A stretch of 23,688 nt of DNA from a virus (lineage: Duplodnaviria > Heunggongvirae > Uroviricota > Caudoviricetes): the IMG/VR virus record IMGVR_UViG_2690316345_000009. One strand, 5' to 3'. Positions 9,573-23,688 of the stretch are shown here, piece by piece. Under the pieces are notes generated by a model that made no database searches, was not told the origin of the DNA, and worked only from the letters and a program-made list of their open reading frames with translations. Position 1 is the stretch's first letter, and each line of letters opens with the position of its first letter. A program made the translations under genes and the position numbers.

Positions 9573-11339
9573 ATGAACACCACACTGACACCCGCAGATC
9601 TCGATCCCCGTCGGCAGGCCATGCTGCTGTACTTTCAGGGATACCGCGTAGCCCGCATTGCTGAAATGCTGGGCGAGAAAGTTGCAACCGTTCACAGCTG
9701 GAAAAAACGCGACAAGTGGGGTGACTATGGGCCGCTGGATCAGATGCAGCTCACCACCGCCGCACGCTACTGCCAGCTCATTATGAAGGAGCACAAAGAA
9801 GGGAAAGATTTCAAAGAGATTGACCTGCTGGCGCGCCAGTCGGAGCGCCACGCGCGGATCGGCAAGTTTAACAATGGCGGCAACGAAGCCGACTTAAACC
9901 CTAACGTCGCCAACCGCAACAAAGGCCCGCGCCGTCAGCCGGAAAAGAATGTTTTCACCGATGAGCAGATTGAGAAGCTGGAAGAAATCTTCCATTCCTC
10001 CATGTTCAACTACCAGCGCCACTGGTGGGAAGCCGGAAAAGCTAACCGCATCCGCAACCTGCTGAAGTCACGCCAGATCGGCGCGACCTTTTACTTTGCC
10101 CGTGAAGCCCTGATTGACGCCCTGCTTACCGGACGTAACCAGATTTTCCTTTCTGCCAGTAAGGCACAGGCTCACGTCTTTAAGCAGTACATCATCGACT
10201 TCGCCAAAGAAGTCGAGGTGGAGCTGAAAGGTGATCCGATGGTGCTTCCTAACGGGGCCACGCTGTATTTCCTCGGCACCAATGCCCGCACGGCCCAGAG
10301 TTACCACGGCAACCTGTATCTGGATGAATATTTCTGGATACCGAAATTCCAGGAGCTGCGCAAAGTGGCTTCCGGTATGGCTATTCACAAAAAATGGCGA
10401 CAAACCTATTTTTCCACGCCATCCAGCCTGACACACAGTGCTTATCCGTTCTGGTCCGGTGCGCTGTTTAACCGTGGGCGCAACAAAGCCGATAAGGTGG
10501 ACATCGACCTGTCCCACAACAATCTGGCCCCCGGCCTGCTGTGCGCAGACGGGCAATACCGCCAGATAGTCACCGTGGAAGATGCGGTGCGCGGCGGCTG
10601 TAACCTGTTCGACCTCGACCAGCTACGCATGGAGTACAGCCCGGACGAATACCAGAACCTGCTGATGTGCGAGTTCGTGGACGATCTCGCGTCCGTGTTC
10701 CCGCTCAGCGAACTGCAGGCGTGCATGGTGGACAGTTGGGAAGTCTGGACCGACTTTCATGCACTGGCCCTGCGCCCGTTTGGCTGGCGCGAGGTGTGGA
10801 TCGGTTATGACCCGGCAAAAGGTACGCAGAATGGCGACAGCGCCGGATGCGTGGTGGTGGCACCGCCAGCCGTGCCAGGCGGTAAGTTTCGCATTCTTGA
10901 GCGTCACCAGTGGCGCGGGATGGACTTCCGCGCCCAGGCTGATGCAATCAAAAAACTGACCGAGCAGTACAACGTGACCTACATCGGCATCGACTCGACA
11001 GGTGTCGGCCACGGGGTTTACGAGAACGTGAAAGCGTTTTTTCCAGCCGTCCGGGAGTTTGTCTACAACCCCAACGTTAAAAACGCCCTGGTACTCAAGG
11101 CCTACGACATTATCAGTCACCGTCGTCTGGAGTTTGACGCCGGACACACCGACATAGCGCAGTCATTTATGGCAATCCGTCGCGCCACCACCGCCAGCGG
11201 CAACCGCCCAACCTATGAAGCCAGCCGCAGCGAAGAAGCCAGCCATGCCGATCTGGCCTGGGCAACAATGCACGCACTGTTTAACGAACCGCTGCAGGGC
11301 GAGTCCGCCAATACCAGCAATATTGTGGAGATTTTTTGA
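9573..11339 (+). CDS. Terminase large (ATPase) subunit (P2 gpP-like)
   Basis: 588-aa ORF MNTTLTPADLDPRRQAMLLYFQGYRVARIAEMLGEKVATVHSWKKRDKWGDY...; length and sequence characteristic of P2-family terminase ATPase; followed by the overlapping portal gene. Confidence 0.9.
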   Translation: MNTTLTPADLDPRRQAMLLYFQGYRVARIAEMLGEKVATVHSWKKRDKWGDYGPLDQMQLTTAARYCQLIMKEHKEGKDFKEIDLLARQSERHARIGKFNNGGNEADLNPNVANRNKGPRRQPEKNVFTDEQIEKLEEIFHSSMFNYQRHWWEAGKANRIRNLLKSRQIGATFYFAREALIDALLTGRNQIFLSASKAQAHVFKQYIIDFAKEVEVELKGDPMVLPNGATLYFLGTNARTAQSYHGNLYLDEYFWIPKFQELRKVASGMAIHKKWRQTYFSTPSSLTHSAYPFWSGALFNRGRNKADKVDIDLSHNNLAPGLLCADGQYRQIVTVEDAVRGGCNLFDLDQLRMEYSPDEYQNLLMCEFVDDLASVFPLSELQACMVDSWEVWTDFHALALRPFGWREVWIGYDPAKGTQNGDSAGCVVVAPPAVPGGKFRILERHQWRGMDFRAQADAIKKLTEQYNVTYIGIDSTGVGHGVYENVKAFFPAVREFVYNPNVKNALVLKAYDIISHRRLEFDAGHTDIAQSFMAIRRATTASGNRPTYEASRSEEASHADLAWATMHALFNEPLQGESANTSNIVEIF

Positions 11340-12364
11340 TGGGAAAGAGTAAAAAAAACCGCGTAGCGGCGATGAATCAGATCCAGCATAAAAGCCAGAC
11401 TTCAGCCGAAGCATTCAGCTTCGGCGATCCCGTTCCTGTTCTGGACCGCCGTGAACTGCTGGACTATGTGGAATGCGTACAGACAGATCGATGGTATGAG
11501 CCGCCAGTGAGTTTTGACGGGCTGGCGCGCACCTTTCGCGCCGCCGTGCATCACAGCTCACCGATTGCGGTGAAATGCAATATTCTGACCAGTACCTACA
11601 TCCCTCACCCGCTGCTCAGCCAGCAGGCTTTTTCACGTTTTGTGCAGGACTATCTGGTATTTGGTAACGCCTACCTGGAGAAACGCACGAACCGCTTCGG
11701 TGAAGTTATCGCCCTTGAGCCTGCTCTGGCAAAATACACCCGACGCGGGTTAGACCTGGATACCTACTGGTTTGTGCAATACGGTATGACAACCCAGCCG
11801 TATCAGTTCACGAAAGGCAGCATTTTTCATCTGATGGAACCGGACATCAACCAGGAGATCTACGGCCTGCCAGGTTATCTTTCTGCCATTCCGTCAGCCC
11901 TGCTCAACGAGTCCGCCACGCTGTTCCGCCGGAAGTATTACATTAACGGCAGTCATGCAGGCTTCATCATGTACATGACCGATGCCGCGCAGAACCAGGA
12001 GGATGTGAACAACCTCCGCAATGCGATGAAAAGCGCCAAAGGCCCTGGCAACTTCCGCAACCTGTTTATGTACTCGCCTAACGGCAAAAAGGACGGGCTT
12101 CAGATCATCCCGTTGTCAGAAGTCGCGGCGAAGGATGAATTTCTTAACATCAAGAACGTGAGTCGGGATGACATGATGGCAGCGCATCGTGTGCCGCCAC
12201 AAATGATGGGGATAATGCCTAATAATGTTGGGGGATTTGGGGATGTAGAAAAAGCCAGTAAGGTATTTGTGAAAAATGAATTATTACCATTACAAAAAAG
12301 AATGAAAGAATTTAATCATTGGAGCGGTGAAGAAATTATAAAATTCGAGAGATATCAAATTTAG
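11339..12364 (+). CDS. Portal protein (P2 gpQ-like)
   Basis: Track ORF 11336..12364 begins at a TTG; the adjacent ATG gives MGKSKKNRVAAMNQIQHKSQTSAEAFSFGDPVPV...; ~341 aa, P2 gpQ-like; start overlaps the terminase stop. Confidence 0.9.
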   Translation: MGKSKKNRVAAMNQIQHKSQTSAEAFSFGDPVPVLDRRELLDYVECVQTDRWYEPPVSFDGLARTFRAAVHHSSPIAVKCNILTSTYIPHPLLSQQAFSRFVQDYLVFGNAYLEKRTNRFGEVIALEPALAKYTRRGLDLDTYWFVQYGMTTQPYQFTKGSIFHLMEPDINQEIYGLPGYLSAIPSALLNESATLFRRKYYINGSHAGFIMYMTDAAQNQEDVNNLRNAMKSAKGPGNFRNLFMYSPNGKKDGLQIIPLSEVAAKDEFLNIKNVSRDDMMAAHRVPPQMMGIMPNNVGGFGDVEKASKVFVKNELLPLQKRMKEFNHWSGEEIIKFERYQI

Positions 12365-12388: not shown

Positions 12389-13363
12389 TTAAATCAAGTC
12401 TAATGTACTCTGTTTCCCTGGCCATTTTAGCTCTAACAAATACTCCCGGGACTCATTTATGATCATAATCACATCATCATAATCCCGTTTTGTTTTTAGC
12501 GCTCTAGCCATGTTGCTCTTAACTAAATCAACTGTTCCCTCACAATTAAGATTAAGCGGATTATTAGGTAGGTGAGGTACAACCGCAAACACTGGTCTTT
12601 TCGCCTTATTTGCAAACTCAGCTTGAGTTATCGTTCCGCTATTTAACGCAGCCTCGATTAAAATTGAACCTGCAGATAATCCAACTTGTATCCGATTTCT
12701 TTGTACAAATGATTGTTTCTGGGCCGGCCGACCCATAGGATACTCAGAAATCCATGCACCACCTTTATCCAGAATCTCTTGAGCAAGTCGACTGTTTTGC
12801 TTCGGCTTAGCCTCCTCAAGACCATGCGCCAAGACAGCAATGGTTTTTCCTTTTGCCTGTAACGTTGCCTTGTGGGCATTCGCATCAGTGCCTATTGCTA
12901 ACCCACTTACAACAATATACCCAGCAGACACTATCTGATTAGTGATCCGCCTCGTTATTTCTTCCCCTGCAGGGGAGGTATCACGGGATCCTACAATTGC
13001 GACACCCGGCAATTCTTTGAGTATACTTTTATCCCCTTTTATGTAGAGAATTGATGGTGGATTAGGAGTAAAAGCTAAACTAAGAGGATAGAATTCAGAC
13101 CCATATGGTATTAGCTCCACACCATTAACATGGTGGTTCTCCAATTCAGCGTTCGCTATTAGAAAATCAGTCTCAGATATTTTATCTTTTAGAAACCCGT
13201 GGCTATTAACCATCTCAGTTAAGTCGCGTATATCACGAATAACATCAAAATCGATAAGCTCAAAGAATTTTAATACACTTTGATCAGATGCTAGCTTCCC
13301 GATTTGAATAGCTAATCCAAGTGTATTTTTTAATTCTTCTGAGTGCACTTTGCTACTCCTCAT
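12389..13363 (-). CDS. DprA/Smf-like (Rossmann, SLOG-type) domain protein; candidate ShosA-like component
   Basis: 324-aa ORF with DprA-family core motifs GVAIVGSRDTSPAGEE...GYIVVSGLAIGTDANAHKATL...IAVLAHGL; overlaps the upstream PRTase gene by ~11 nt on the same strand; AT-rich relative to the phage core. Confidence 0.6.
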   Translation of the reverse strand: MRSSKVHSEELKNTLGLAIQIGKLASDQSVLKFFELIDFDVIRDIRDLTEMVNSHGFLKDKISETDFLIANAELENHHVNGVELIPYGSEFYPLSLAFTPNPPSILYIKGDKSILKELPGVAIVGSRDTSPAGEEITRRITNQIVSAGYIVVSGLAIGTDANAHKATLQAKGKTIAVLAHGLEEAKPKQNSRLAQEILDKGGAWISEYPMGRPAQKQSFVQRNRIQVGLSAGSILIEAALNSGTITQAEFANKAKRPVFAVVPHLPNNPLNLNCEGTVDLVKSNMARALKTKRDYDDVIMIINESREYLLELKWPGKQSTLDLI

Positions 13364-13928
13364 AGTTTGCAGTTTCTAGCAGAGCTAATGGCATTATAAC
13401 TCCAGCTCCTGCAGACTCCAGTAAATAAAAACACGCAGACAAACTACCGCCTGTTGTTTTAACATCATCTAGTAGTAACACATTTCGCCCCATGAGGTTA
13501 CCACCCCTAACTCTGATACTAGACATGTGACCAGTAATTGAGCGATCTCCTCCTTCACGATGTGCGCTAGGAACAGTGCGTGTTCTTTCCAAACAGCAAT
13601 CAACAATGCCCCGACGGTGAACATTTACGATTCGCTCGGCGACCTCAATCAAAGCCGGTGAAATTCTGCCTTCAGTGTGAGACGGGACAACTGCTATCGA
13701 AAAAGGAGACTCAACAAAACGCCCACCGCCACCTCTGATTACTAACCGCCCAACCTTATCTATAGCTAATCGAGAAAAACGGTTAATGGCCCTTTGATGA
13801 TTACGATTATTTTCATCCTTAAAATCCATCATCTGCCTTGATAGTTCATCGCTATGAGGGTTGCGCTCTCCCAAATGCCAGTAGGGGTGATACAAGCCAC
13901 ACGATGTAATACTTACGGGTAAAAGCAT
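13353..13928 (-). CDS. Phosphoribosyltransferase (PRTase) domain protein; candidate ShosT-like component
   Basis: 191-aa ORF containing the type I PRTase PRPP-binding signature VLLLDDVKTTGGSL; first gene of a two-gene cassette with the DprA-like gene; sits between cos and the portal gene. Confidence 0.6.
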   Translation of the reverse strand: MLLPVSITSCGLYHPYWHLGERNPHSDELSRQMMDFKDENNRNHQRAINRFSRLAIDKVGRLVIRGGGGRFVESPFSIAVVPSHTEGRISPALIEVAERIVNVHRRGIVDCCLERTRTVPSAHREGGDRSITGHMSSIRVRGGNLMGRNVLLLDDVKTTGGSLSACFYLLESAGAGVIMPLALLETANYEE

Positions 13929-14045
13929 TCTTTATTCTCATGTAGTCCTAACTCAAACAATGTTAAGCGAAATGATATTTCATAGACAAACACAAATTTA
14001 AGAATAATCTCAATGATCACATTTTTGATTATGAAACAAAGCCAA

Positions 14046-14077
14046 GAGTTAGCGCGCGCTCGTATCCCCGCCACGCC
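14046..14077 (-). other. Candidate cos site (cohesive-end region) of the P2/186 family
   Basis: Minus strand reads GGCGTGGCGGGGATACGAGCGCGCGCT..., matching the first 13 nt of the 186 cohesive end as I recall it (GGCGTGGCGGGGAAAGCAT) and the flanking GCGCGCT of the P2 left end. Lies in a ~490-bp non-coding gap and is oriented so that the portal gene is on the left-end side, as in P2. Coordinates approximate. Confidence 0.6.
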
Positions 14078-14366
14078 TGCCCGCTTTGTGCAATGGTTTT
14101 CATGCAGGTGCATAACATACGAAAAAGTCCGTCACAACTGGCACGCCTGCGTTACAACGCTCCTCAAACGGTCATGCGATCTCATGCAGCATAGCCATGC
14201 ACTTAGGGGAGAAGTGAATGTTCGTAACCAAATGACCGTTTATATATCGAAGCAGAAGAACTAAGAAAGCTTGAGGTGTGCTTTGAACGTTAAACATAGT
14301 ATGTAAATGGTTTATTTTCCCGAGATACTCACTCGGGCCCAATCTGCTTATCGTCTTCATAAAATC

Positions 14367-14396
14367 AAACGTTCAGCCAAGAATATCTGAACGTTT
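14367..14396 (-). terminator. 10-bp-stem hairpin downstream of the HNH gene (candidate terminator of the ATPase-HNH operon)
   Basis: AAACGTTCAG-(10 nt loop)-CTGAACGTTT, ~30 nt past the HNH gene stop; followed on the minus strand by GATTTTATG. Loop is long for a canonical intrinsic terminator. Confidence 0.4.
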
Positions 14397-14422
14397 AGCT
14401 TTTATGGGCAAAACTGTATTAA

Positions 14423-15169
14423 CTAGCGAATTGACGGTAACGTCAGGCTCAAAGATTCATCATGAAGTTCCTGCATATAATCTGACCATAATCCTTGCAT
14501 CTGCATGGTTTCTTTCAGATAAGAATATTCGACTGAACGATGAAGCATTGTTGCTGATACTGCAGAAAAGGGAGATGTTTTCTGACACTCACCTAATATT
14601 GCCTCGACTAGATTCATAAGAATGTTTTTACGTCTAGTACTTGGATTCTCATTAAACCAATTAAGTTTTTCTATTGCGTCATCAATACTGCTATCTATAA
14701 GTTCCCCTGCTTTACAACGCGGTATAAACTTGTGCTCCCTGTGATTAAAGTTTAAAACATCCACTGTTGTTTTACCTAAATCAGTTTTACCTTTAATACG
14801 ATACCCTATCATATAAAGGTGTTCTGACGGTAAATCGTTGCATGGATTTATTATAGGATTGAGTACAACATTATGGCGTTGTTTTGAACCATTACAGTGA
14901 CGGCATGAAGGAAGGAGATTTTCCCATCTAATAACATCATCAGGGAAATTTTTTTTATCCTTAAAATGCTCAATTTCATTATAGGTGCTAGCCTCTTCAA
15001 GCTTGACCTCACAAAATGCACATTTGCCATTACTTAATTTTAGACATGCCGATTTTACTTCCGGATGATGCCAAACAGATGTTCCATTATCTTTAAACTC
15101 CTGAGTTAAAGATAGAAGATCAACACGAGTAAAAAAATCAGGAATAAAGTTCCGTTCAAGCTTAATCAT
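14423..15169 (-). CDS. HNH endonuclease-domain protein; candidate Septu PtuB-like nuclease
   Basis: 248-aa ORF with HNH-type arrangement CAFCEVKL...EIEHFKDKK...WENLLPSCRHCNGSK; start 1 nt after the stop of the upstream ATPase gene; strongly AT-rich. Confidence 0.7.
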   Translation of the reverse strand: MIKLERNFIPDFFTRVDLLSLTQEFKDNGTSVWHHPEVKSACLKLSNGKCAFCEVKLEEASTYNEIEHFKDKKNFPDDVIRWENLLPSCRHCNGSKQRHNVVLNPIINPCNDLPSEHLYMIGYRIKGKTDLGKTTVDVLNFNHREHKFIPRCKAGELIDSSIDDAIEKLNWFNENPSTRRKNILMNLVEAILGECQKTSPFSAVSATMLHRSVEYSYLKETMQMQGLWSDYMQELHDESLSLTLPSIR

Positions 15170-15170
15170 T

Positions 15171-16352
15171 TTACTCTTCTCTCTCTCGAATTGACATCAG
15201 GCTTATTTTAAGAGATTTACGAAGAATACTGTTTTGATGCAATGCCATATCCAAATAATCATAAATTTCTTTCGCCTTGTCGAAATTTTCTTCATCAACA
15301 AAACGTTCGAAATTATCAAGTAGTTCTTGTAGTTTTCTACTGAGAGTGCTTTCCATCCCCATTACATCTAACAAAACCTCTTCAACTGTCCAGGCAGAAT
15401 AACCCAAGCCATTTTCAGGAAGTTCTTTTACTCTCACTGTGCCATCATTATCTGGTACTAACGCAATGATCTGATGTGGTTTTGCATTCTGTACTACATG
15501 TGGGCTGTGAGTTGTGACAATAAATTGTGCTGATGGAAATGTTGTCGTAAGGGCTTCAGTGATTCTTGCCTGCCACTCAGGATGCAAATGAAGCTCAATT
15601 TCATCGATAAGAATCACTCCATCAAATTCTTGGGCGTAAATATCTTTCTCCGGATAACGAAGCTCGATCTCTTTAATAATACCGAGAAGGAGACTCATAC
15701 ATGATTTGAATCCCGAGGACAGATATTCATACCATATTACCCCGGTCGGGGTATTTACAAAAATATCGTAAGATTTAGGATCGACGCGATTGTAAGAAAA
15801 CTGAGGGTTTAAAATTGATATACACTCCCTTGCAAGATGTATATTTTTTATCGTATTAGGACCGTAACCATTATCTACTTTTTCAAACAAATCCCTCTTA
15901 GCAAACCAATCCTTGATATCATGTAAATTGACACCTAAATTAATCTGTTGCGAAACAGCATCATCGGATAGTGATTTATCTGCATTCAACGCCTCAAGAT
16001 GTTTATAATCAAAGTTACGTAATATTTCAAATTTTATTAGTTTCCTCTTATCAAATCCGTTATTATTAAAGTTGTGAATTGTTTCTGTAGGCAAATGAAC
16101 GTTAACATCTAATACTGAATTAAAGTTAACAGAATTATCTTCTATTATTAGACTAACACTTCCTGTTTCAGAAGTGACATTGCGTTTTATTCTATTAGTG
16201 TATCCATGAAGAAAAGGAAAGGAGGCAGCAAGCAAGAGTGTGGATTTTCCAACTCCGTTAGGCCCACATATAATATTCATGTCAGGCCTAAATTTTACGT
16301 ACAGGGACTTTATCCCCCCGATACCGTTTATAGTTAGCTCAGTCAGTTTCAT
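15171..16352 (-). CDS. ABC-type (AAA_15/21-like) ATPase; candidate Septu PtuA-like component
   Basis: Track ORF 15171..16373 starts at a GTG; likely start is the in-frame ATG with upstream AAGGAAA giving MKLTELTINGIGG.... Walker A GPNGVGKST, ABC-signature-like LSSGFK, Walker B VILIDEIELHLHP, H-loop TTHSP. No TOPRIM or other nuclease domain fused. Confidence 0.7.
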   Translation of the reverse strand: MKLTELTINGIGGIKSLYVKFRPDMNIICGPNGVGKSTLLLAASFPFLHGYTNRIKRNVTSETGSVSLIIEDNSVNFNSVLDVNVHLPTETIHNFNNNGFDKRKLIKFEILRNFDYKHLEALNADKSLSDDAVSQQINLGVNLHDIKDWFAKRDLFEKVDNGYGPNTIKNIHLARECISILNPQFSYNRVDPKSYDIFVNTPTGVIWYEYLSSGFKSCMSLLLGIIKEIELRYPEKDIYAQEFDGVILIDEIELHLHPEWQARITEALTTTFPSAQFIVTTHSPHVVQNAKPHQIIALVPDNDGTVRVKELPENGLGYSAWTVEEVLLDVMGMESTLSRKLQELLDNFERFVDEENFDKAKEIYDYLDMALHQNSILRKSLKISLMSIREREE

Positions 16353-16587
16353 ATATTTCCTTGTAATTTCCACTAACCCACATTCAGGATTAGCTAGATA
16401 CTAAGGAACAAGCCAAGTGTTGTAAATAAAAAATCTTATCTTATATTCGAGTTAGAAAAGTATGTTGCACCCGCTGGTTGAGCAAACAGTACAAAGCTGG
16501 CGGCCATTGAAGATCATGACCGCCATACCTAACGCCTCGCTTCACTCGTTGTTCAACCTTGTTCCCTCTGATAGGATCCTATCGGGA

Positions 16588-17168: not shown

Positions 17169-19562
17169 TTAGTACCATCGACGCCATTTGTCATCTTCCT
17201 GCAGCCTCTGTTTACGGTAAAAAATACGTAAACCGGCACCGGATGGAATGCTGCCGCCACGCAGAAGCAAATCAATCTCAGATACACTACCCTCAAACCC
17301 TCTGGCAGTCAGTTCTGCCTCAAGCTGCAGGCGCTGCTGCTCCGAAATACTCTGTATGTATGCTTTTTTTCGCTTCGGTTTTACCAGTCTCAACCTGGCT
17401 GTCAGCTCCCGCCGTTCCTTCTGGCCCATGTTGTGGAGATATTCCTGCAGCTCCTTCTCATCCATGGTTTTAATATCGGGTAAATCCCCCCCTGATTTGT
17501 TCATATTTTCAACAGGGGGACAGTTATTGCCACGAGTCCAAGGGGCGCAAGCGCCCTGGTCGGCTACCGCCTCCTGAACGTCAACGGCTTTACGAACCAT
17601 TTTCCACTTCACTGCATGAGTGCAGATCTTGCCCTCTGCAATGGGTGACCAGATGCCATAAATACGAATGCCGTGATCGCCATAGGCGGTCGGCTCTTCG
17701 TTAATTTCATAAGCAGTTCTGATGAGGTGATATTTGCGGGGAACCAGTACGCCGCCCTGCTTCATGATGTAAGTGGCAAAACAACCAGCATCAGCAGCAG
17801 CCAGGATTGCATCAAGGCGCGGGTTATCCAGTACCGGCGCACCTGCTTTTTTGTCCCCCTGTTGCCTTGCCGCCTGACCAGCCAGCAATCGCAGTTCACG
17901 GTAAGCCTGACGCCCCGGAATGCCAAAGAAGCGGAATTGCTGAACACGATGCAGAGACGCCCAGGCATTAACGTATTCAGCGTTATCACGCAGGGATTTA
18001 CCCGTTTCCTTACTGATCTCGCCAGCCAGACCACGCCCGTCAATATTCTTACTGATATATTTCGCAATGTAGCTTGTCGGCGTTCCTTTGCGCGGGTTTA
18101 TCAGCTCAGACTTAAAGCGTGGCCCCGTGTTATTGCCCAGCTCCTCGCGGTCTTCACGGATGGCAAACTTACGCAACAATGCAGTAATGGCGCGGCGGTC
18201 TTTTTTGCGCATGAAACACAACAGGTGCCAGTGAACTGTGCCGTCATGATGCGGCTCAGCCACCCGCACGCCATACCAGCGCAACCCGGCTTTGTGCATA
18301 GCCTTACGAAATGCAGCAAACATGCCGACCAGATAATCGCTGCTTTGTCTTACTGTCGCGTTGGTCCAGGTCGGGTTTGGCCTGCCGTTATTTAGCGTGG
18401 AATGGAAACGTGACGGACAGGTGATGGTGTAGAAAACGGCGCAGTCACCGCGCATTTCCGCGATAAGCTCCAGACCTTTAACACAGGCCATCATCTCATT
18501 GCGGCGATGCGCAGGGTTGCTGCTGCTGGCGTTTACCACGTCTTCCATATCCAGCGTGTCGCCGTCTTCGTTCACCAGTTCATGAGAACGGAAAAACTCC
18601 AGCGACTTACGGCGCTGCTCACGTTTATGCATCACGGCTTCATAGCTGACATAGGGAGATGCTTTTTTGCTGACCAGGCAAACAGCACGCAACTGCTCTT
18701 CCCGCCATTCGCTACGCATCTTCCATAATTTCCGATACCACCAGTCGGCGCACAACATACGCGCCAGCGAACCCGGAATAAGTTCATAGGGCACGGGTTT
18801 ACGGCGGTTTCTTTTCCGGCGGAGTTGCTCAAACGCAGGCGGTATGACATCCAGTCGCAGGGTTTCCGCCGCCACCTTTTCCCATGTCTTGCGGATTTCT
18901 TCTGGCTTAACGTCATCGGTGGCATACAAATCACCACAAGCGACCTCAAGACACATGCTCATATGCGCTGCTACCAGGGTGGACAGGCGTTTTACCTGAT
19001 CCTGACTCATTTCAGGCAGGATCAGCAGGCCGTCCAGCCCTTCATGGCTTGCCATAAAGCGAAAAGAAGTGGATAGCTGACTGTCGCGTACATGCTCCAG
19101 TCTTTCCAGACATGGCTTAATCGTCTCACGCAAATAGCGGGAATAAGCCTTTGGCCTGCCCAGACTGCTGAAGTATTCAATACGTTGCATCAGCGGCTTG
19201 CTGATATGGGAAGGCAGGGCGTTGACGTCAGCCAGAATGACCATGTCTGGATTAAAACGCTGCTGCTCATGCGCCAGCTTTGCCCGGCTAATGAGCTTAT
19301 CCTGCTCCATTTCGCGCTGGACAGGATCACGGGATTCATTAAAGAAATAACGCTCCCAGACCTGCTCACTCAGTGCCTCGCGGCGCAGTTGTTCCTGCTC
19401 GTTATCGGCAGCATACAGAGTGATCAGGTTTGAAAGTGCAGACTCCGGCGCAAATTCCGCCGGGTCCAGATAAGGGTTAATGGCCTTTTTCGGGCCGTTC
19501 CATGAAAATGATGCAGCGGCCTCGTTAAAGCCGCTAGAGTTGCTCATATCGTCATGACTCAT
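17169..19562 (-). CDS. Replication initiation endonuclease (P2 gpA-like rolling-circle initiator)
   Basis: 797-aa ORF; size and position (between the Dam/TraR operon and the SOS module) match P2/186 gene A; start overlaps the dam stop (ATGA). Confidence 0.85.
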
Positions 19563-22277: not shown

Positions 22278-22481
22278 TTAAGCAGACAAAGCATCAACAG
22301 TCAGAGCAGCCAGGTTAATCATTACCTTTTCACGTTTTTTGTCTTTACGAAGACGATGACGAGGTAGTCGGCCATCAGCCAACATGTCGTTAATCGTATC
22401 AATAGAAAGGCCAGTCAGTTCGCTATAACGTTCGATTGTGACATGTGGTGTATTCAGAGTAATTGAAATGTTAGGTGTCAT
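22278..22481 (-). CDS. Apl/Cox-like small HTH protein (excisionase / lytic-promoter-side repressor)
   Basis: 67-aa basic ORF, first gene of the leftward early operon immediately upstream of the CII-like gene, divergent from the repressor gene; HTH-like core [25 protein letters not shown]. Confidence 0.6.
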
Positions 22482-22626
22482 AAGGCAACATTCCTTCTAG
22501 ATATGGCTTGTGGCGAGCCGTTGTTTGTCGTGATTAGTAGTGAAGGCTCCAAAAGAACACTTCTGGTTCAACTTTAAGATCGCTTTTGGAATCTGTCAAC
22601 GAATTTTGGATTTCTTTGGAGGACTT
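22482..22626. promoter_or_regulatory. Lysis-lysogeny switch region between divergent Apl-like and CI-like genes
   Basis: ~145-bp gap separating the divergently oriented Apl-like and CI-like starts; by analogy with 186 (pR/pL) and P2 (Pe/Pc) expected to hold face-to-face promoters and operators. Individual promoter hexamers not confidently assigned. Confidence 0.5.
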
Positions 22627-23196
22627 GTGGATTTCAATAGCGGCGGTAAGAAAGCCATAGAACGTTTAGTTGAAGCATATGGGTTCGGTACCCGTCAGGC
22701 TCTCTGTGATCATTTAGGTGTTTCTAAGAGCACCATGGCAACGCGCTATATGCGTGATATTTTTCCAGCAGATTGGGTAATCCAGTGCGCCCTTGAAACG
22801 GGCACCTCGCTTAATTGGCTAACAACAGGGCATGGTTCAAAGCAAGCATCAGCAAATACAAATACTATAGAAGTAGAAAAATATTTATTGTCTGATGGAG
22901 CATTGCAGAAAGACGGTTTTTATATTTTTGATAAGGAATTTCTACCCTCTACGTTTAAAAAACCTTTTGTCATCACAGATAACAATTCTGAATTTATTTG
23001 TGATAAAGAATTTGATGATATACGTGATGGTAAATGGGTAATAAGTATTGATGGCGAAATAACGATCCGTGACATTACTCGTTTACCCGGTGGAAGAATC
23101 TTCGTCGAGGGTGGAAACAGAGCCTTCGAATGCAAGATAGAAGACATTGAAATAATTGGTAAAATTATAAGTTTAACAGTCAAGTATGTTAAATAG
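22627..23196 (+). CDS. cI: CI-like immunity repressor (186 CI family)
   Basis: Track ORF 22540..23196; likely start is the in-frame GTG preceded by GGAGG, giving ~189 aa (186 CI is of similar size). N-terminal HTH-like region (TRQALCDHLGVSKSTMATRYMRD). Call rests mainly on switch synteny. Confidence 0.65.
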   Translation: MDFNSGGKKAIERLVEAYGFGTRQALCDHLGVSKSTMATRYMRDIFPADWVIQCALETGTSLNWLTTGHGSKQASANTNTIEVEKYLLSDGALQKDGFYIFDKEFLPSTFKKPFVITDNNSEFICDKEFDDIRDGKWVISIDGEITIRDITRLPGGRIFVEGGNRAFECKIEDIEIIGKIISLTVKYVK

Positions 23197-23211
23197 TACC
23201 GGGAGGAAACT

Positions 23212-23403
23212 ATGCTTGGTAAGGTATTTTTTGTGGTTTTGTCATGTTCTTTGTTATTAAACCCACTAACTACCTATGCTAGAAATTATCCCTGCTCAGG
23301 GAAAAAGGGAGGTGTTTCTCACTGTACCTCAGATGGCAAATTCGTTTGCAATGATGGAACTATTAGTAAATCCAAAAAAATCTGTACTAAAAACTCACGA
23401 TAA
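23212..23403 (+). CDS. Small secreted cysteine-rich protein (candidate lysogenic-conversion moron)
   Basis: 63-aa ORF with strong RBS (GGGAGGAAACT-ATG) 16 nt after the CI stop; N-terminal signal peptide ([23 protein letters not shown]) and a ~40-aa Lys-rich part with four Cys (C-x9-C-x7-C-x11-C); AT-rich. Confidence 0.5.
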
Positions 23404-23586
23404 CTTTTGCTTTTATATCTGCGTCTAAAATAAAAATGAGCCGCAGGTTAACCGCAAAAGTTACATGCTCACATAGCAAAAAGAATAGCCAACTTCATTA
23501 TGGCTTCAGTGAGATGTATGGTCGTAGGATTTCATACATTGACACTGGTTATACATACAGTAAAAATGCTCTCTACTGGAGGTAAT

Positions 23587-23619
23587 GCCAGTCAGTTAAG
23601 CAACTGACTGGCTCTTTTT
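23587..23619 (+). terminator. Rho-independent terminator (11-bp stem, 4-nt loop, T-run)
   Basis: GCCAGTCAGTT-AAGC-AACTGACTGGC followed by TCTTTTT on the plus strand, downstream of the CI / small-ORF transcription unit. Coordinates approximate. Confidence 0.55.
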
Positions 23620-23688
23620 CGGGGCTGTGGGGTATTTCCAGGGCCTCTCCTTTACCACTCTCGGGAAGGCCCTTTCCCTTCTTGTCGG

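What the first reader, a model, noticed from the sequence alone, without database searches (positions are those of the whole stretch)
23212..23403. Small secreted four-cysteine protein encoded directly behind the repressor gene (moron candidate)
A 63-aa ORF with near-consensus RBS starts 16 nt after the CI stop. It has a classic signal peptide and a Lys-rich ~40-aa mature part with four cysteines, suggesting a disulfide-stabilised periplasmic or exported peptide. In 186 the integrase gene follows cI directly; this AT-rich ORF looks like an insertion co-transcribed with the repressor, so it would be expressed in the lysogen. Possible roles are superinfection exclusion, envelope modification or a small toxin/inhibitor.
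Basis: partly seen in the sequence, partly recalled or inferred. Interest (0 to 1): 0.55.

Follow-up and report, generated by a model that had tools for sequence, protein, structure and literature searches.

The report
Prophage YdcA-family secreted mini-protein gene
The 63-codon gene behind the repressor gene of this 186-like E. coli prophage is real and conserved, and it encodes an exported, cysteine-knotted mini-protein of the already catalogued but functionally unknown YdcA family, so it is a credible lysogen-expressed cargo gene rather than a new kind of element.

Summary
An intact 63-aa ORF lies at 23212..23403, with a GGAGG Shine-Dalgarno 5 nt upstream and 15 nt after the cI stop. It has a signal-peptide-like N-terminus and a 40-aa basic mature part with four conserved cysteines.

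It is not an orphan. It scores above NCBIfam's cut-off for NF007463 (YdcA family) and matches PHROG 6000 and Pfam PF27300. It equals RefSeq WP_000900883.1 and is 57% identical to K-12 YdcA. It occurs in 628 of 5426 complete E. coli genomes, including C and BL21(DE3).

Eleven of 12 differences between two alleles are synonymous. The mature peptide is 71-84% identical in Yersinia and Pasteurellaceae prophages whose CI is only 32-38% identical.

The cI-int junction is a variable cargo slot: empty in 186, and holding Glo in K139. Haemophilus phage HP2 has an unannotated YdcA-like ORF there.

New leads:
- The domain matches a lobe of Legionella Dis2, a disulfide-pinned protein near the outer membrane in the Dot/Icm T4SS.
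- It is fused to three unrelated secreted nuclease folds.
- Longer paralogues sit in T6SS clusters.

Function remains untested. The most likely role is a periplasmic binder made in lysogens, possibly for exclusion.

The parts
22278..22481 (-). apl/cox-like small HTH gene, the first gene of the divergent early lytic operon
   Evidence: 67-aa ORF. It gives weak Phage_Cox and HTH_17 hits. It occupies the same position as the 204-nt CDS annotated 'hypothetical protein' between cII and cI in related prophages.
22627..23196 (+). cI repressor gene of 186 type. This is the RefSeq start; the longest ORF begins at 22540.
   Evidence: Phage_CI_repr 3.3e-31 and Phage_CI_C 4e-29. It is annotated 'phage repressor protein CI', 570 nt, in identical prophages.
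23202..23206 (+). Shine-Dalgarno GGAGG of the small ORF, 5 nt before the ATG
   Evidence: Read directly from the sequence.
23212..23403 (+). YdcA-family gene, 63 codons plus stop
   Evidence: ORF listed. NF007463 scores 115.8 bits against a cut-off of 93. phrog_6000 gives 1.9e-34. It equals RefSeq WP_000900883.1 'YdcA family protein'. Eleven of 12 differences from the B/C allele are synonymous.
23212..23280 (+). Predicted Sec signal peptide (residues 1-23), with cleavage after T-Y-A
   Evidence: This part varies among homologues while Ala23 and the mature N-terminus are conserved. It forms a helix at residues 2-15 in the AF2 model. Cleavage is inferred, not tested.
23281..23400 (+). Mature 40-aa basic peptide with the pattern C-x9-C-x7-C-x11-C (the YdcA domain)
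   Evidence: The Cys spacing is fixed in 138 domains, and net charge is positive in 131 of the 138. AF2 pLDDT is 79.5, with a beta-hairpin at mature residues 12-15 and 21-23. The best PDB match is Dis2.
23404..23582 (+). Conserved 179-nt spacer between the small gene and int. It contains a long hairpin (23401..23463) and the int Shine-Dalgarno (23578..23582).
   Evidence: Folding z-score is -3.6. The spacer is conserved in the B/BL21 allele. No +-strand terminator-like site was found in it. In relatives, the int ATG follows 10 nt after position 23582.
23583..23688 (+). End of an IS4 copy inserted between the int ribosome-binding site and the int start codon. The window ends inside it.
   Evidence: It is 100% identical to IS4 (transposase InsG) ends in two lambda-type records. 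Related prophages continue with int at this point.

Best explanation
The ORF is a genuine gene for a Sec-exported mini-protein of the YdcA family, about 40 residues long and strongly basic. It is carried as accessory cargo (a moron) in the lysogenic operon pL -> cI -> ydcA-like -> int of a 186-like prophage.

Proposed course of events:
1. It is transcribed and translated together with CI in the lysogen (inferred).
2. It is exported and its leader is removed after Ala23 (inferred).
3. Its four conserved cysteines are oxidised to two disulfides. These lock a small beta-hairpin fold like one lobe of Legionella Dis2 (inferred from homology).
4. Having no catalytic domain, it acts purely by binding in the periplasm near the inner face of the outer membrane.

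Its ligand is most likely a polyanion or an envelope component at the place where DNA and injection or secretion machines cross the outer membrane. Relatives of the domain sit in the T4SS outer-membrane cap, in T6SS clusters, and at the N-terminus of exported nucleases.

The most likely benefit is interference with incoming foreign DNA or phage, a role like superinfection exclusion.

My probabilities:
- Identity, export and cargo status: about 0.9.
- Acts as a periplasmic binder near the outer membrane: about 0.5.
- Exclusion of incoming DNA or phage is the selected function: about 0.25.
For: Gene reality and family:
- Matches to NF007463 and phrog_6000.
- RefSeq annotation as a YdcA family protein.
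- 57% identity to K-12 YdcA.
- 457 cluster representatives in 1.84 billion proteins.

Selection:
- 11 synonymous against 1 conservative change, P = 8e-7.
- The mature peptide is 71-84% identical where the flanking CI is 32-38% and Int 41-49% identical.

Export:
- The leader varies while the mature part is conserved.
- K-12 YdcA is described as having a signal sequence and being predicted periplasmic (PMC11340327).

Fold and disulfides:
- The family profile hits Dis2 at E = 1e-5, and at 22.8 bits with the domain alone.
- Dis2 is the Foldseek top hit for both models, at probability 0.98 and 0.85.
- A Dis2 homologue carries PF27300 in the precomputed Pfam hits.
- Dis2 lies near the outer membrane and has five disulfides seen in the density (PMC8486379).

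Operon and cargo slot:
- The gap after cI is 15 nt, with no terminator-like site.
- The 186 record annotates pL as driving the lysogenic operon, with a predicted operon terminator beyond orf69; cI, int and orf69 lie between the two.
- The slot content varies among relatives.
- The same placement occurs in Yersinia and Pasteurellaceae prophages and in HP2/S2.
- Rousset et al. report a defence hotspot between cI and int in K139-like phages (PMC9122126).
- K139 Glo, a soluble periplasmic exclusion protein, sits in the same slot.

Binding-module reading:
- Fusions to SNase, Endonuclease_NS and PLD-type nucleases.
- SNase genes lie next to stand-alone copies.
- Paralogues sit in T6SS clusters.
- Mean net charge of the domain is +3.2.
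- The gene is also carried by unrelated phages and by small mobilizable plasmids.
Against: - There are no expression, localisation or phenotype data for this gene.
- No SignalP-type tool was available.
- PADLOC has no model that matches it.
- Dis2 is dispensable for T4SS function and its own role is unknown, so the homology gives a location, not a function.
- Nuclease fusions are a small minority: at least 7 proteins among the members listed out of 457-805 family hits.
- Most genomic contexts are neither phage nor nuclease.
- Chromosomal K-12/W ydcA is linked to acid and 3-hydroxypropionate tolerance, not to phage.
- Glo is not homologous.
Confidence: 0.55

Rival explanations
1. Host-fitness conversion factor. 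The prophage copy does what chromosomal YdcA does, which is to contribute to envelope or acid-stress tolerance. It pays its way by making the lysogen hardier, not by acting on other phages or DNA.
For: It is 57% identical to K-12 YdcA, with the same motif and Cys pattern. ydcA is reported as acid-induced under YdcI, and its deletion makes E. coli W sensitive to 3-hydroxypropionate (PMC7642389). It is up-regulated on entry to a persister-rich phase. Many family members are chromosomal in non-mobile contexts.
Against: The ydcA phenotypes are indirect and have no mechanism. E. coli already has a chromosomal copy, so a second one needs another rationale. The recurrent placement in the phage lysogeny operon, on tiny plasmids, and next to or fused with nucleases is not explained.
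Confidence: 0.2
2. Accessory or decoy for trans-envelope machines. The peptide docks onto outer-membrane-associated complexes, as Dis2 does on DotC/DotD/DotK. In this way it modulates or blocks conjugative T4SS entry, T6SS attack or contractile-tail penetration.
For: Dis2 is a stoichiometric part of the T4SS outer-membrane cap, at 13 copies, and contacts DotK, DotC and DotD. Paralogues of 130-148 aa lie inside T6SS clusters in E. coli, S. arizonae and another lineage. On a 3.9-kb MOBQ plasmid the gene follows the 'TraD' gene. UniRef labels this cluster 'Conjugal transfer protein'.
Against: The window has no T4SS or T6SS genes. The UniRef name is unverified automatic annotation. The T6SS-linked paralogues carry an extra C-terminal module that is absent here. 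Loss of Dis2 has almost no effect.
Confidence: 0.15
3. Secreted antimicrobial or toxin-like peptide. This would be a Lys-rich, Cys-stabilised, defensin- or bacteriocin-like molecule released by the lysogen.
For: Its size, charge (+7) and four cysteines resemble cationic antimicrobial peptides.
Against: It has only a Sec leader, so in a Gram-negative cell it would stop in the periplasm. There is no immunity, processing or export gene beside it. The same domain is a structural lobe of Dis2 and an N-terminal module of nucleases. A chromosomal copy is present in K-12.
Confidence: 0.04
4. Untranslated chance ORF, or merely a spacer between cI and int.
For: It is short and AT-rich, and nobody has shown its expression.
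Against: Eleven of 12 substitutions are synonymous (P = 8e-7). The Shine-Dalgarno is strong. The family has 457 members with an invariant Cys pattern. The mature part is conserved above the level of the flanking phage genes.
Confidence: 0.02

Closest known systems
E. coli K-12 YdcA (b1419) and the YdcA family (Pfam PF27300, NCBIfam PRK10040 models, PHROG 6000)
   Same: Same size class, with a leader peptide, the motif PCSGxKGG(V/I)SHC...KFVCNDG(S/T)xSxSKKxC and four Cys at fixed spacing. Identity is 57%. It scores above the NF007463 cut-off.
   Different: The K-12 gene is chromosomal, lying between rydC and hokB. This copy is prophage cargo behind cI, and it belongs to a separate NCBIfam sub-model (NF007463, not NF007462). 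Neither has a known molecular function.
Legionella pneumophila Dis2 (Lpg0823; PDB 7MUC/7MUD chain AN), a component of the Dot/Icm T4SS outer-membrane cap
   Same: Its sequence motif is CSKMGGINYC...RLVCNNGxxS. Profile E = 1e-5. It is the Foldseek top hit, with 38% identity over 37-39 columns and query TM-score 0.58-0.64. It is periplasmic, disulfide-stabilised and close to the outer membrane.
   Different: Dis2 has two lobes and ten Cys (five disulfides), and it is built into a T4SS. The window protein has one lobe, four Cys and no T4SS nearby. Roberts et al. describe Dis2 as Legionella-specific. The link to YdcA is my inference from weak but concordant scores.
Glo of Vibrio phage K139, a soluble periplasmic superinfection-exclusion protein
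   Same: It is encoded in the lysogenic operon between cI and int of a P2/HP1-related phage. It has a signal peptide and is annotated as periplasmic and involved in exclusion.
   Different: There is no sequence similarity. Glo is 137 aa with a different composition. The resemblance is in position and compartment only.
Phage morons and cargo hotspots of P2-like phages (Rousset et al. 2022; the NAR 2026 survey)
   Same: This is a variable slot flanked by conserved phage genes. Alternative occupants include a KAP NTPase, a 558-aa ATPase and a 349-aa protein. The literature reports a cI-int hotspot in K139-like phages and a minor int-primase hotspot in P2-like prophages.
   Different: The occupant here is not a recognised defence system (no PADLOC hit). 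When other cargo is added, this gene stays next to cI.
Exported nucleases with an N-terminal YdcA domain (SNase, Endonuclease_NS and PLD/Nuc types)
   Same: They have the same leader plus YdcA domain.
   Different: They carry a catalytic domain. The window protein is the bare module.

Membership tests
YdcA family (NCBIfam NF007463 / Pfam PF27300 / PHROG 6000) | Whole-protein score above the curated family cut-off | tested here: met
   NF007463 scores 115.8 bits against a cut-off of 93, covering model positions 1-58 of 58. phrog_6000 gives 1.9e-34. PF27300 is precomputed for the cluster and is named YdcA. The local Pfam copy lacks this model.
YdcA family (NCBIfam NF007463 / Pfam PF27300 / PHROG 6000) | Four cysteines at C-x9-C-x6/7-C-x11-C, within the PCSGxKGG...FxCxDGxxSxS motif | tested here: met
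   The window protein has spacing 10, 8, 12 between Cys positions. Among 138 domains, 113 have spacing 10, 7, 12 and 24 have 10, 8, 12. The conserved columns are listed.
YdcA family (NCBIfam NF007463 / Pfam PF27300 / PHROG 6000) | N-terminal Sec signal peptide and periplasmic location | tested here: inconclusive
   The sequence features fit, with K4, a hydrophobic core and T-Y-A before R24. No predictor or experiment was available.
Phage moron / lysogenic-conversion cargo | Lies in a slot that is empty or differently filled in close relatives, so it is dispensable for the phage | tested here: met
   In 186 and RE-2010, cI abuts int. The slot holds other occupants in 813R9, 4LV2017, K139 and HP2. 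Of 140 phage records with this CI type, the only Peduoviridae among the 27 records with a YdcA-like gene are HP2 (two records) and S2.
Phage moron / lysogenic-conversion cargo | Expressed from the prophage in the lysogen | not testable with these tools
   This is inferred only. The gap after cI is 15 nt, there is no terminator-like site between the genes, and the 186 lysogenic operon layout is annotated.
Phage moron / lysogenic-conversion cargo | Base composition distinct from the flanking phage genes | tested here: inconclusive
   The ORF is 35% G+C against 50.5% for the window. The neighbouring cI 3' half is 33% and the spacer 37%.
Superinfection-exclusion proteins of the K139 Glo type | Homology to Glo | tested here: not met
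   BLASTP gives 15 bits, E = 0.16.
Superinfection-exclusion proteins of the K139 Glo type | Blocks infection by a superinfecting phage | not testable with these tools
   This needs plating-efficiency assays.
Dis2 (Lpg0823) T4SS outer-membrane-cap component | Sequence and structure similarity to a Dis2 lobe | tested here: met
   [not shown]
Dis2 (Lpg0823) T4SS outer-membrane-cap component | Two lobes, five disulfides, encoded in an organism with a Dot/Icm-type T4SS | tested here: not met
   The window protein has a single lobe and four mature Cys. No T4SS genes lie in the window or in related loci.
Bacterial lipoprotein | Lipobox [LVI][ASTVI][GAS]C after a leader of adequate length, with a conserved Cys | tested here: not met
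   V-L-S-C12 follows only 7 residues after K4. Cys12 is absent from most homologues, or is preceded by F, I or V.
Known anti-phage defence systems (PADLOC-DB 2.0) | Match to any model | tested here: not met
   There were no hits at E <= 0.001.

The most novel reading that the evidence does not exclude
YdcA/Dis2-type mini-domains may be a widespread class of DNA-binding or gate-binding modules that sit in the periplasm close to the outer membrane. Temperate phages and small plasmids would deploy the bare 40-residue module as a one-gene barrier. It would act against foreign DNA or contractile injection machines crossing the outer membrane. That covers superinfection exclusion, anti-transformation and anti-conjugation. 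The same module would also tether periplasmic nucleases and decorate T4SS and T6SS machines.
Probability: 0.15. Interest if true: 0.7.

Novelty: already known. Interest (0 to 1): 0.38.

Why it matters
The gene itself is catalogued, so finding it is not a discovery. Its function is a blank, however, even though it is very common. It is in about one in nine complete E. coli genomes, including the laboratory strains C and BL21(DE3). It also occurs in prophages of Yersinia, Haemophilus, Moraxella and Acinetobacter.

Three observations made here turn that blank into testable questions:
- It keeps the same place directly behind the repressor gene in lysogeny operons whose other genes have diverged to 32-49% identity.
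- Its domain is probably the same as the lobes of Legionella Dis2. Dis2 has a solved structure, no known function, and is published as Legionella-specific.
- The domain is repeatedly joined to exported nucleases and to T6SS clusters.

A 4-kDa peptide that can be synthesised chemically, and strains that already carry the gene, make the experiments cheap. If the peptide blocks DNA or phage entry, it would be one of the smallest exclusion factors known.

Tried and rejected
- Local Pfam-A scan of the protein: only a sub-threshold GULLO2-like hit. PF27300 is not in that copy.
- A circular-permutation link to DUF3761 (PF12587), recalled from memory. A tandem duplicate of the mature peptide did not hit it. 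P0079, which has PF12587 in the precomputed list, did not reproduce the hit locally. I dropped the idea as unsupported.
- PBCV_basic_adap for the C-terminal extension of the 100-150-aa forms: only 18 bits, below the cut-off.
- Lipoprotein reading of VLSC12: rejected.
- Homology to K139 Glo: none.
- PADLOC: no hit.
- Rfam on the whole window: nothing.
- The afdb50 fold library was not available.
- Literature: no paper holds the RefSeq accessions. No paper treats the prophage gene, and 'YdcA family' appears only in passing in one study, held as a preprint and as its published version.
- The original K139 Glo paper (PMC93736) is not held, so Glo's role is cited from PMC3952083 and from the GenBank annotation.
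- Megablast of cI plus the ORF against deposited phage genomes found only the IS4 end. This prophage type is not among the sequenced phage isolates.

Full report
OBSERVATION

It runs 23212..23403 on the + strand and encodes 63 aa. The TAG stop of the upstream gene ends at 23196. GGAGG lies at 23202-23206, and the ATG follows 5 nt later.

The upstream gene is a 186-type CI repressor (Phage_CI_repr 3.3e-31, Phage_CI_C 4e-29). The divergent neighbours in identical E. coli prophages are an apl/cox-like gene, cII, fil, DUF5347, DUF2732, a TraR/DksA-type gene, a Dam methylase and gpA, so this is a 186-like prophage.

The small protein has three parts:
- a Lys-containing N-terminus;
- a hydrophobic core followed by T-Y-A;
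- a 40-residue mature part with 9 K/R, 2 D/E, pI 9.7 and four Cys.

A fifth Cys (C12) lies in the leader. It is not conserved and does not make a credible lipobox.

IS IT A REAL GENE?

Yes, on three grounds:
- It scores 115.8 bits on NCBIfam NF007463 (cut-off 93) and 1.9e-34 on phrog_6000.
- The window allele and the allele in E. coli B/BL21(DE3) and C differ at 12 of 192 nucleotides. Eleven differences are synonymous and one is R24K. Only 23% of possible single-base changes in this ORF are synonymous, so the chance probability is 8e-7.
- In alignments of 47 and 150 homologues the leader is free to vary. The mature motif [14 protein letters not shown][10 protein letters not shown](T/S)xSKSKKxC and the four Cys are nearly invariant. 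This pattern is typical of an exported protein.

WHAT IS IT?

It is a member of the YdcA family. RefSeq calls the identical protein WP_000900883.1 'YdcA family protein' or 'hypothetical protein'. The exact sequence sits in a 355-member cluster seen on more than 1000 contigs. Pfam PF27300, named YdcA, is precomputed for it.

It is 57% identical to E. coli K-12 YdcA (b1419), a 57-aa protein encoded between rydC and hokB. The literature says only the following about ydcA:
- It has a signal sequence, is predicted to be periplasmic, and has unknown function (PMC11340327).
- It is acid-induced under YdcI, and its deletion sensitises E. coli W to 3-hydroxypropionate (PMC7642389).
- It rises on entry to a persister-rich phase.

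A profile of the family finds 457 representatives at E <= 0.001 among 1.84 billion cluster representatives. They span Alpha-, Beta- and Gammaproteobacteria.

WHERE DOES IT SIT, AND IS IT CARGO?

In intact relatives the order is cI - ydcA-like - 188 nt - int - att next to rcdA. In phage 186 itself, cI and int overlap by one base. The 186 record annotates pL as driving the lysogenic operon, with a predicted operon terminator beyond orf69. Salmonella phage RE-2010 also has cI directly followed by int.

Other relatives fill the junction differently:

| Phage or prophage | Content between cI and int |
|---|---|
| 186, RE-2010 | nothing |
| vB_EcoM-813R9 | 558-aa ATPase |
| Klebsiella 4LV2017 | 349-aa protein |
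| Vibrio K139 | orf2 plus glo |
| other E. coli 186-like prophages | a second YdcA-like allele, then a KAP NTPase |

So the junction is a cargo slot in the lysogenic operon. The literature already reports a cI-int hotspot in K139-like phages (PMC9122126) and a minor int-primase hotspot in P2-like prophages (PMC13586616).

No terminator-like site lies between cI and the ORF, nor on the + strand between the ORF and int. Co-transcription with cI is therefore the reasonable inference, but it is not shown.

The AT-richness argument is weak. The ORF is 35% G+C, while the 3' half of cI is 33% and the spacer 37%, against 50.5% for the window.

HOW COMMON AND HOW STABLE?

The gene is present in 628 of 5426 complete E. 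coli genomes, almost always directly after a CI gene. These include E. coli C and the degraded prophage of BL21(DE3), which still keeps cI - ydcA-like - int.

Among about 75 species-level loci, the upstream neighbour is a 186-type CI in 6 and the downstream neighbour an integrase in 6. These loci come from Escherichia, three Yersinia species and two Pasteurellaceae.

In the Yersinia and Pasteurellaceae loci, CI is 33-38% identical to the window's CI and Int 41-49%. The mature small peptide is 71-84% identical.

Haemophilus phages HP2 and S2 have a 60-aa YdcA-like ORF whose ATG overlaps the cI stop (ATGTAATG). It is not annotated in their records.

Outside the P2 group the gene occurs in:
- Moraxella catarrhalis prophages, inside the structural module;
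- Acinetobacter Vieuvirus phages and a Pseudomonas phage;
- Acinetobacter and Rhizobium plasmids, including a 3.9-kb MOBQ plasmid with five genes.

It is thus a self-sufficient, single-gene cargo of many mobile elements. It is also a chromosomal gene in many bacteria, and most contexts are neither phage nor plasmid.

WHAT DOES THE DOMAIN DO? FOUR LEADS

The family profile hits one PDB sequence at E = 1e-5: chain AN of 7MUC/7MUD. The match holds without the leader, at 22.8 bits and E = 7e-4. Foldseek ranks the same chain first for both models, at probability 0.98 and 0.85, with 38% identity and query TM-score up to 0.64. Its E-values of 0.09-0.49 would not stand alone.

That chain is Dis2 (Lpg0823) of the Legionella Dot/Icm T4SS outer-membrane cap. 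[quoted passage not shown] It contacts DotK, DotC and DotD, it is dispensable, and it is described as Legionella-specific (PMC12716638).

A Dis2 homologue retrieved here carries PF27300 in the precomputed Pfam list. Two-lobed family members with the KMGGI/CNNG variant of the motif bridge the two groups. I therefore take Dis2 to be a tandem YdcA-type protein. This supports a periplasmic, disulfide-bonded fold and a location close to the outer membrane. It argues against zinc binding.

2. Fusions. Behind the same leader plus domain, some members carry one of three unrelated nuclease folds:
- a staphylococcal-nuclease domain (P0110, P0308);
- a DNA/RNA non-specific endonuclease (P0150, P0194, P0238, P0256, and the Methylococcales locus L039);
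- a PLD/Nuc-type domain (P0183).

These are documented. Stand-alone copies lie next to, and co-oriented with, SNase genes in two further loci.

3. Charge. The core is basic in 131 of 138 domains, with a mean of +3.2.

4. T6SS context. Paralogues of 130-148 aa in Enterobacterales carry the YdcA domain, a Lys-rich linker and a short C-terminal Cys motif. They are encoded in T6SS clusters:
- after tssJ-tssE in E. coli and S. arizonae;
- after vgrG-tle3-tli3-PAAR in another lineage.

Taken together, the domain looks like a small binding or adaptor module. It works in the periplasm near the outer membrane, at places where DNA and injection or secretion machines pass. Whether it binds DNA, lipid or LPS head groups, peptidoglycan, or lipoprotein partners cannot be decided here.

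MOST LIKELY MECHANISM IN THE LYSOGEN

What is shown:
- the gene is real and under purifying selection;
- it belongs to the YdcA family;
- it sits in a cargo slot;
- it keeps the same position in divergent phages.

What is inferred:
- it is transcribed from pL/pE with cI;
- it is exported and cleaved after Ala23;
- it is oxidised to two disulfides;
- having no enzymatic part, it acts by binding.

The best functional guess is interference with entry of foreign DNA or phage, at roughly one chance in four. This is suggested by three things. K139 Glo, an unrelated soluble periplasmic exclusion protein, occupies the same slot. The slot is used for defence cargo. The domain is linked to nucleases and to T4SS and T6SS machines.

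The main rival is a host-fitness role like that hinted for chromosomal ydcA. A toxin or bacteriocin role has nothing in its favour beyond size and charge. A non-coding reading is excluded by the substitution pattern.

COMPARISON AND NOVELTY

The object is already catalogued, as the exact protein, the family and the PHROG. It is ordinary in that sense. It is not a recognised defence gene.

I could not find three points in the searchable literature:
- its conserved post-cI placement across Escherichia, Yersinia and Pasteurellaceae phages, including the unannotated HP2/S2 ORF;
- the probable homology of the YdcA domain with the Dis2 lobes;
- the nuclease-fusion and T6SS-cluster associations.

These are leads, not proofs. 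I score interest as moderate to low.

OTHER THINGS SEEN

- The window ends in an IS4 copy inserted exactly between the int Shine-Dalgarno and its ATG. No complete E. coli genome in the collection has this junction.
- The gpQ-gpA hotspot of this prophage holds Shosta and Septu defence systems.
- The spacer after the small gene is conserved and folds unusually well.

Noticed in passing
window 23583..23688: The window ends inside an IS4 copy inserted between the integrase Shine-Dalgarno (GGAGG, 23578..23582) and where the int ATG lies in intact relatives, 10 nt further on. This probably uncouples int from the lysogenic transcript and may lock the prophage in place. None of the 5426 complete E. 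coli genomes has this junction; the best coverage of the query was 91%.
   Followed up: partly
window 12389..16373 (- strand): The known P2 cargo hotspot between portal (11336..12364) and gpA (17169..19562) holds two defence systems. Shosta consists of ShosA at 12389..13363 (235 bits) and ShosT at 13353..13928 (51 bits). Septu consists of PtuA at 15171..16373 (504 bits) and PtuB at 14423..15169 (313 bits).
   Followed up: partly
[not shown]
   Followed up: yes
window 23401..23582: The 179-nt spacer between the small gene and int is conserved between alleles and folds much better than shuffled controls (z = -3.6). It has a long hairpin at 23401..23463 that lacks a U-tract. There is no Rfam match. 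It might be a processing or stability element, or a regulator of int expression. A promoter-like site at 23539..23567 precedes int.
   Followed up: partly
L097-L100 5001..6529 (other E. coli 186-like prophages): A second allele of the small gene (P0012, 61 aa, 69% identical) also follows cI directly. It is followed in turn by a 443-aa KAP-family NTPase before int. The small gene therefore stays next to cI while further cargo is added downstream.
   Followed up: partly
L101 5001..5401; L105/L106 6001..6399; L102-L104 6001..6447: Proteins of 130-148 aa carry a YdcA domain, a Lys-rich linker and the conserved C-terminal motif PTCAPLYMAxKPGFTHLPIC. They are encoded inside T6SS clusters: after tssJ-tssE in E. 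coli and S. arizonae, and after vgrG-tle3-tli3-PAAR elsewhere. They may be an unrecognised T6SS accessory protein.
   Followed up: partly
PDB 7MUC/7MUD chain AN (Dis2, Lpg0823); P0325, P0326: Dis2 of the Legionella Dot/Icm T4SS is published as Legionella-specific with no structural neighbours. It appears instead to be a tandem of two YdcA-type domains (profile E = 1e-5; Foldseek top hit; PF27300 precomputed on a homologue).
   Followed up: partly
L039 5878..6936; P0110, P0150, P0183, P0194, P0238, P0256, P0308: Exported nucleases of three unrelated folds (SNase, Endonuclease_NS, PLD/Nuc) share an N-terminal YdcA domain. SNase genes also flank stand-alone YdcA genes in L073 and L080.
   Followed up: yes
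L095 728..904 (Acinetobacter pittii plasmid pApiMCR53a, 3916 bp): A YdcA-like gene is one of only five genes on a tiny MOBQ mobilizable plasmid, directly after a gene annotated 'conjugal transfer protein TraD'. I guess this kind of neighbourhood may be the source of the unverified UniRef name 'Conjugal transfer protein' for the E. coli cluster.
   Followed up: no
window 23164..23192 (- strand): A near-consensus sigma-70-like site (TTAACA-17-TATAAT, 11 of 12 matches) points antisense into the 3' end of cI. The number of such sites in the region does not exceed the shuffled expectation, so it may be a chance product of AT-rich DNA.
   Followed up: no
L007 (JAEWTL010000113.1, labelled 'MAG: Bacillota bacterium'): A 3-kb contig holds a cI - ydcA-like - int segment whose small protein is 100% identical to the window's (the CI is of the same 186 type). 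It is almost certainly E. coli prophage DNA mis-binned into a Bacillota MAG.
   Followed up: no
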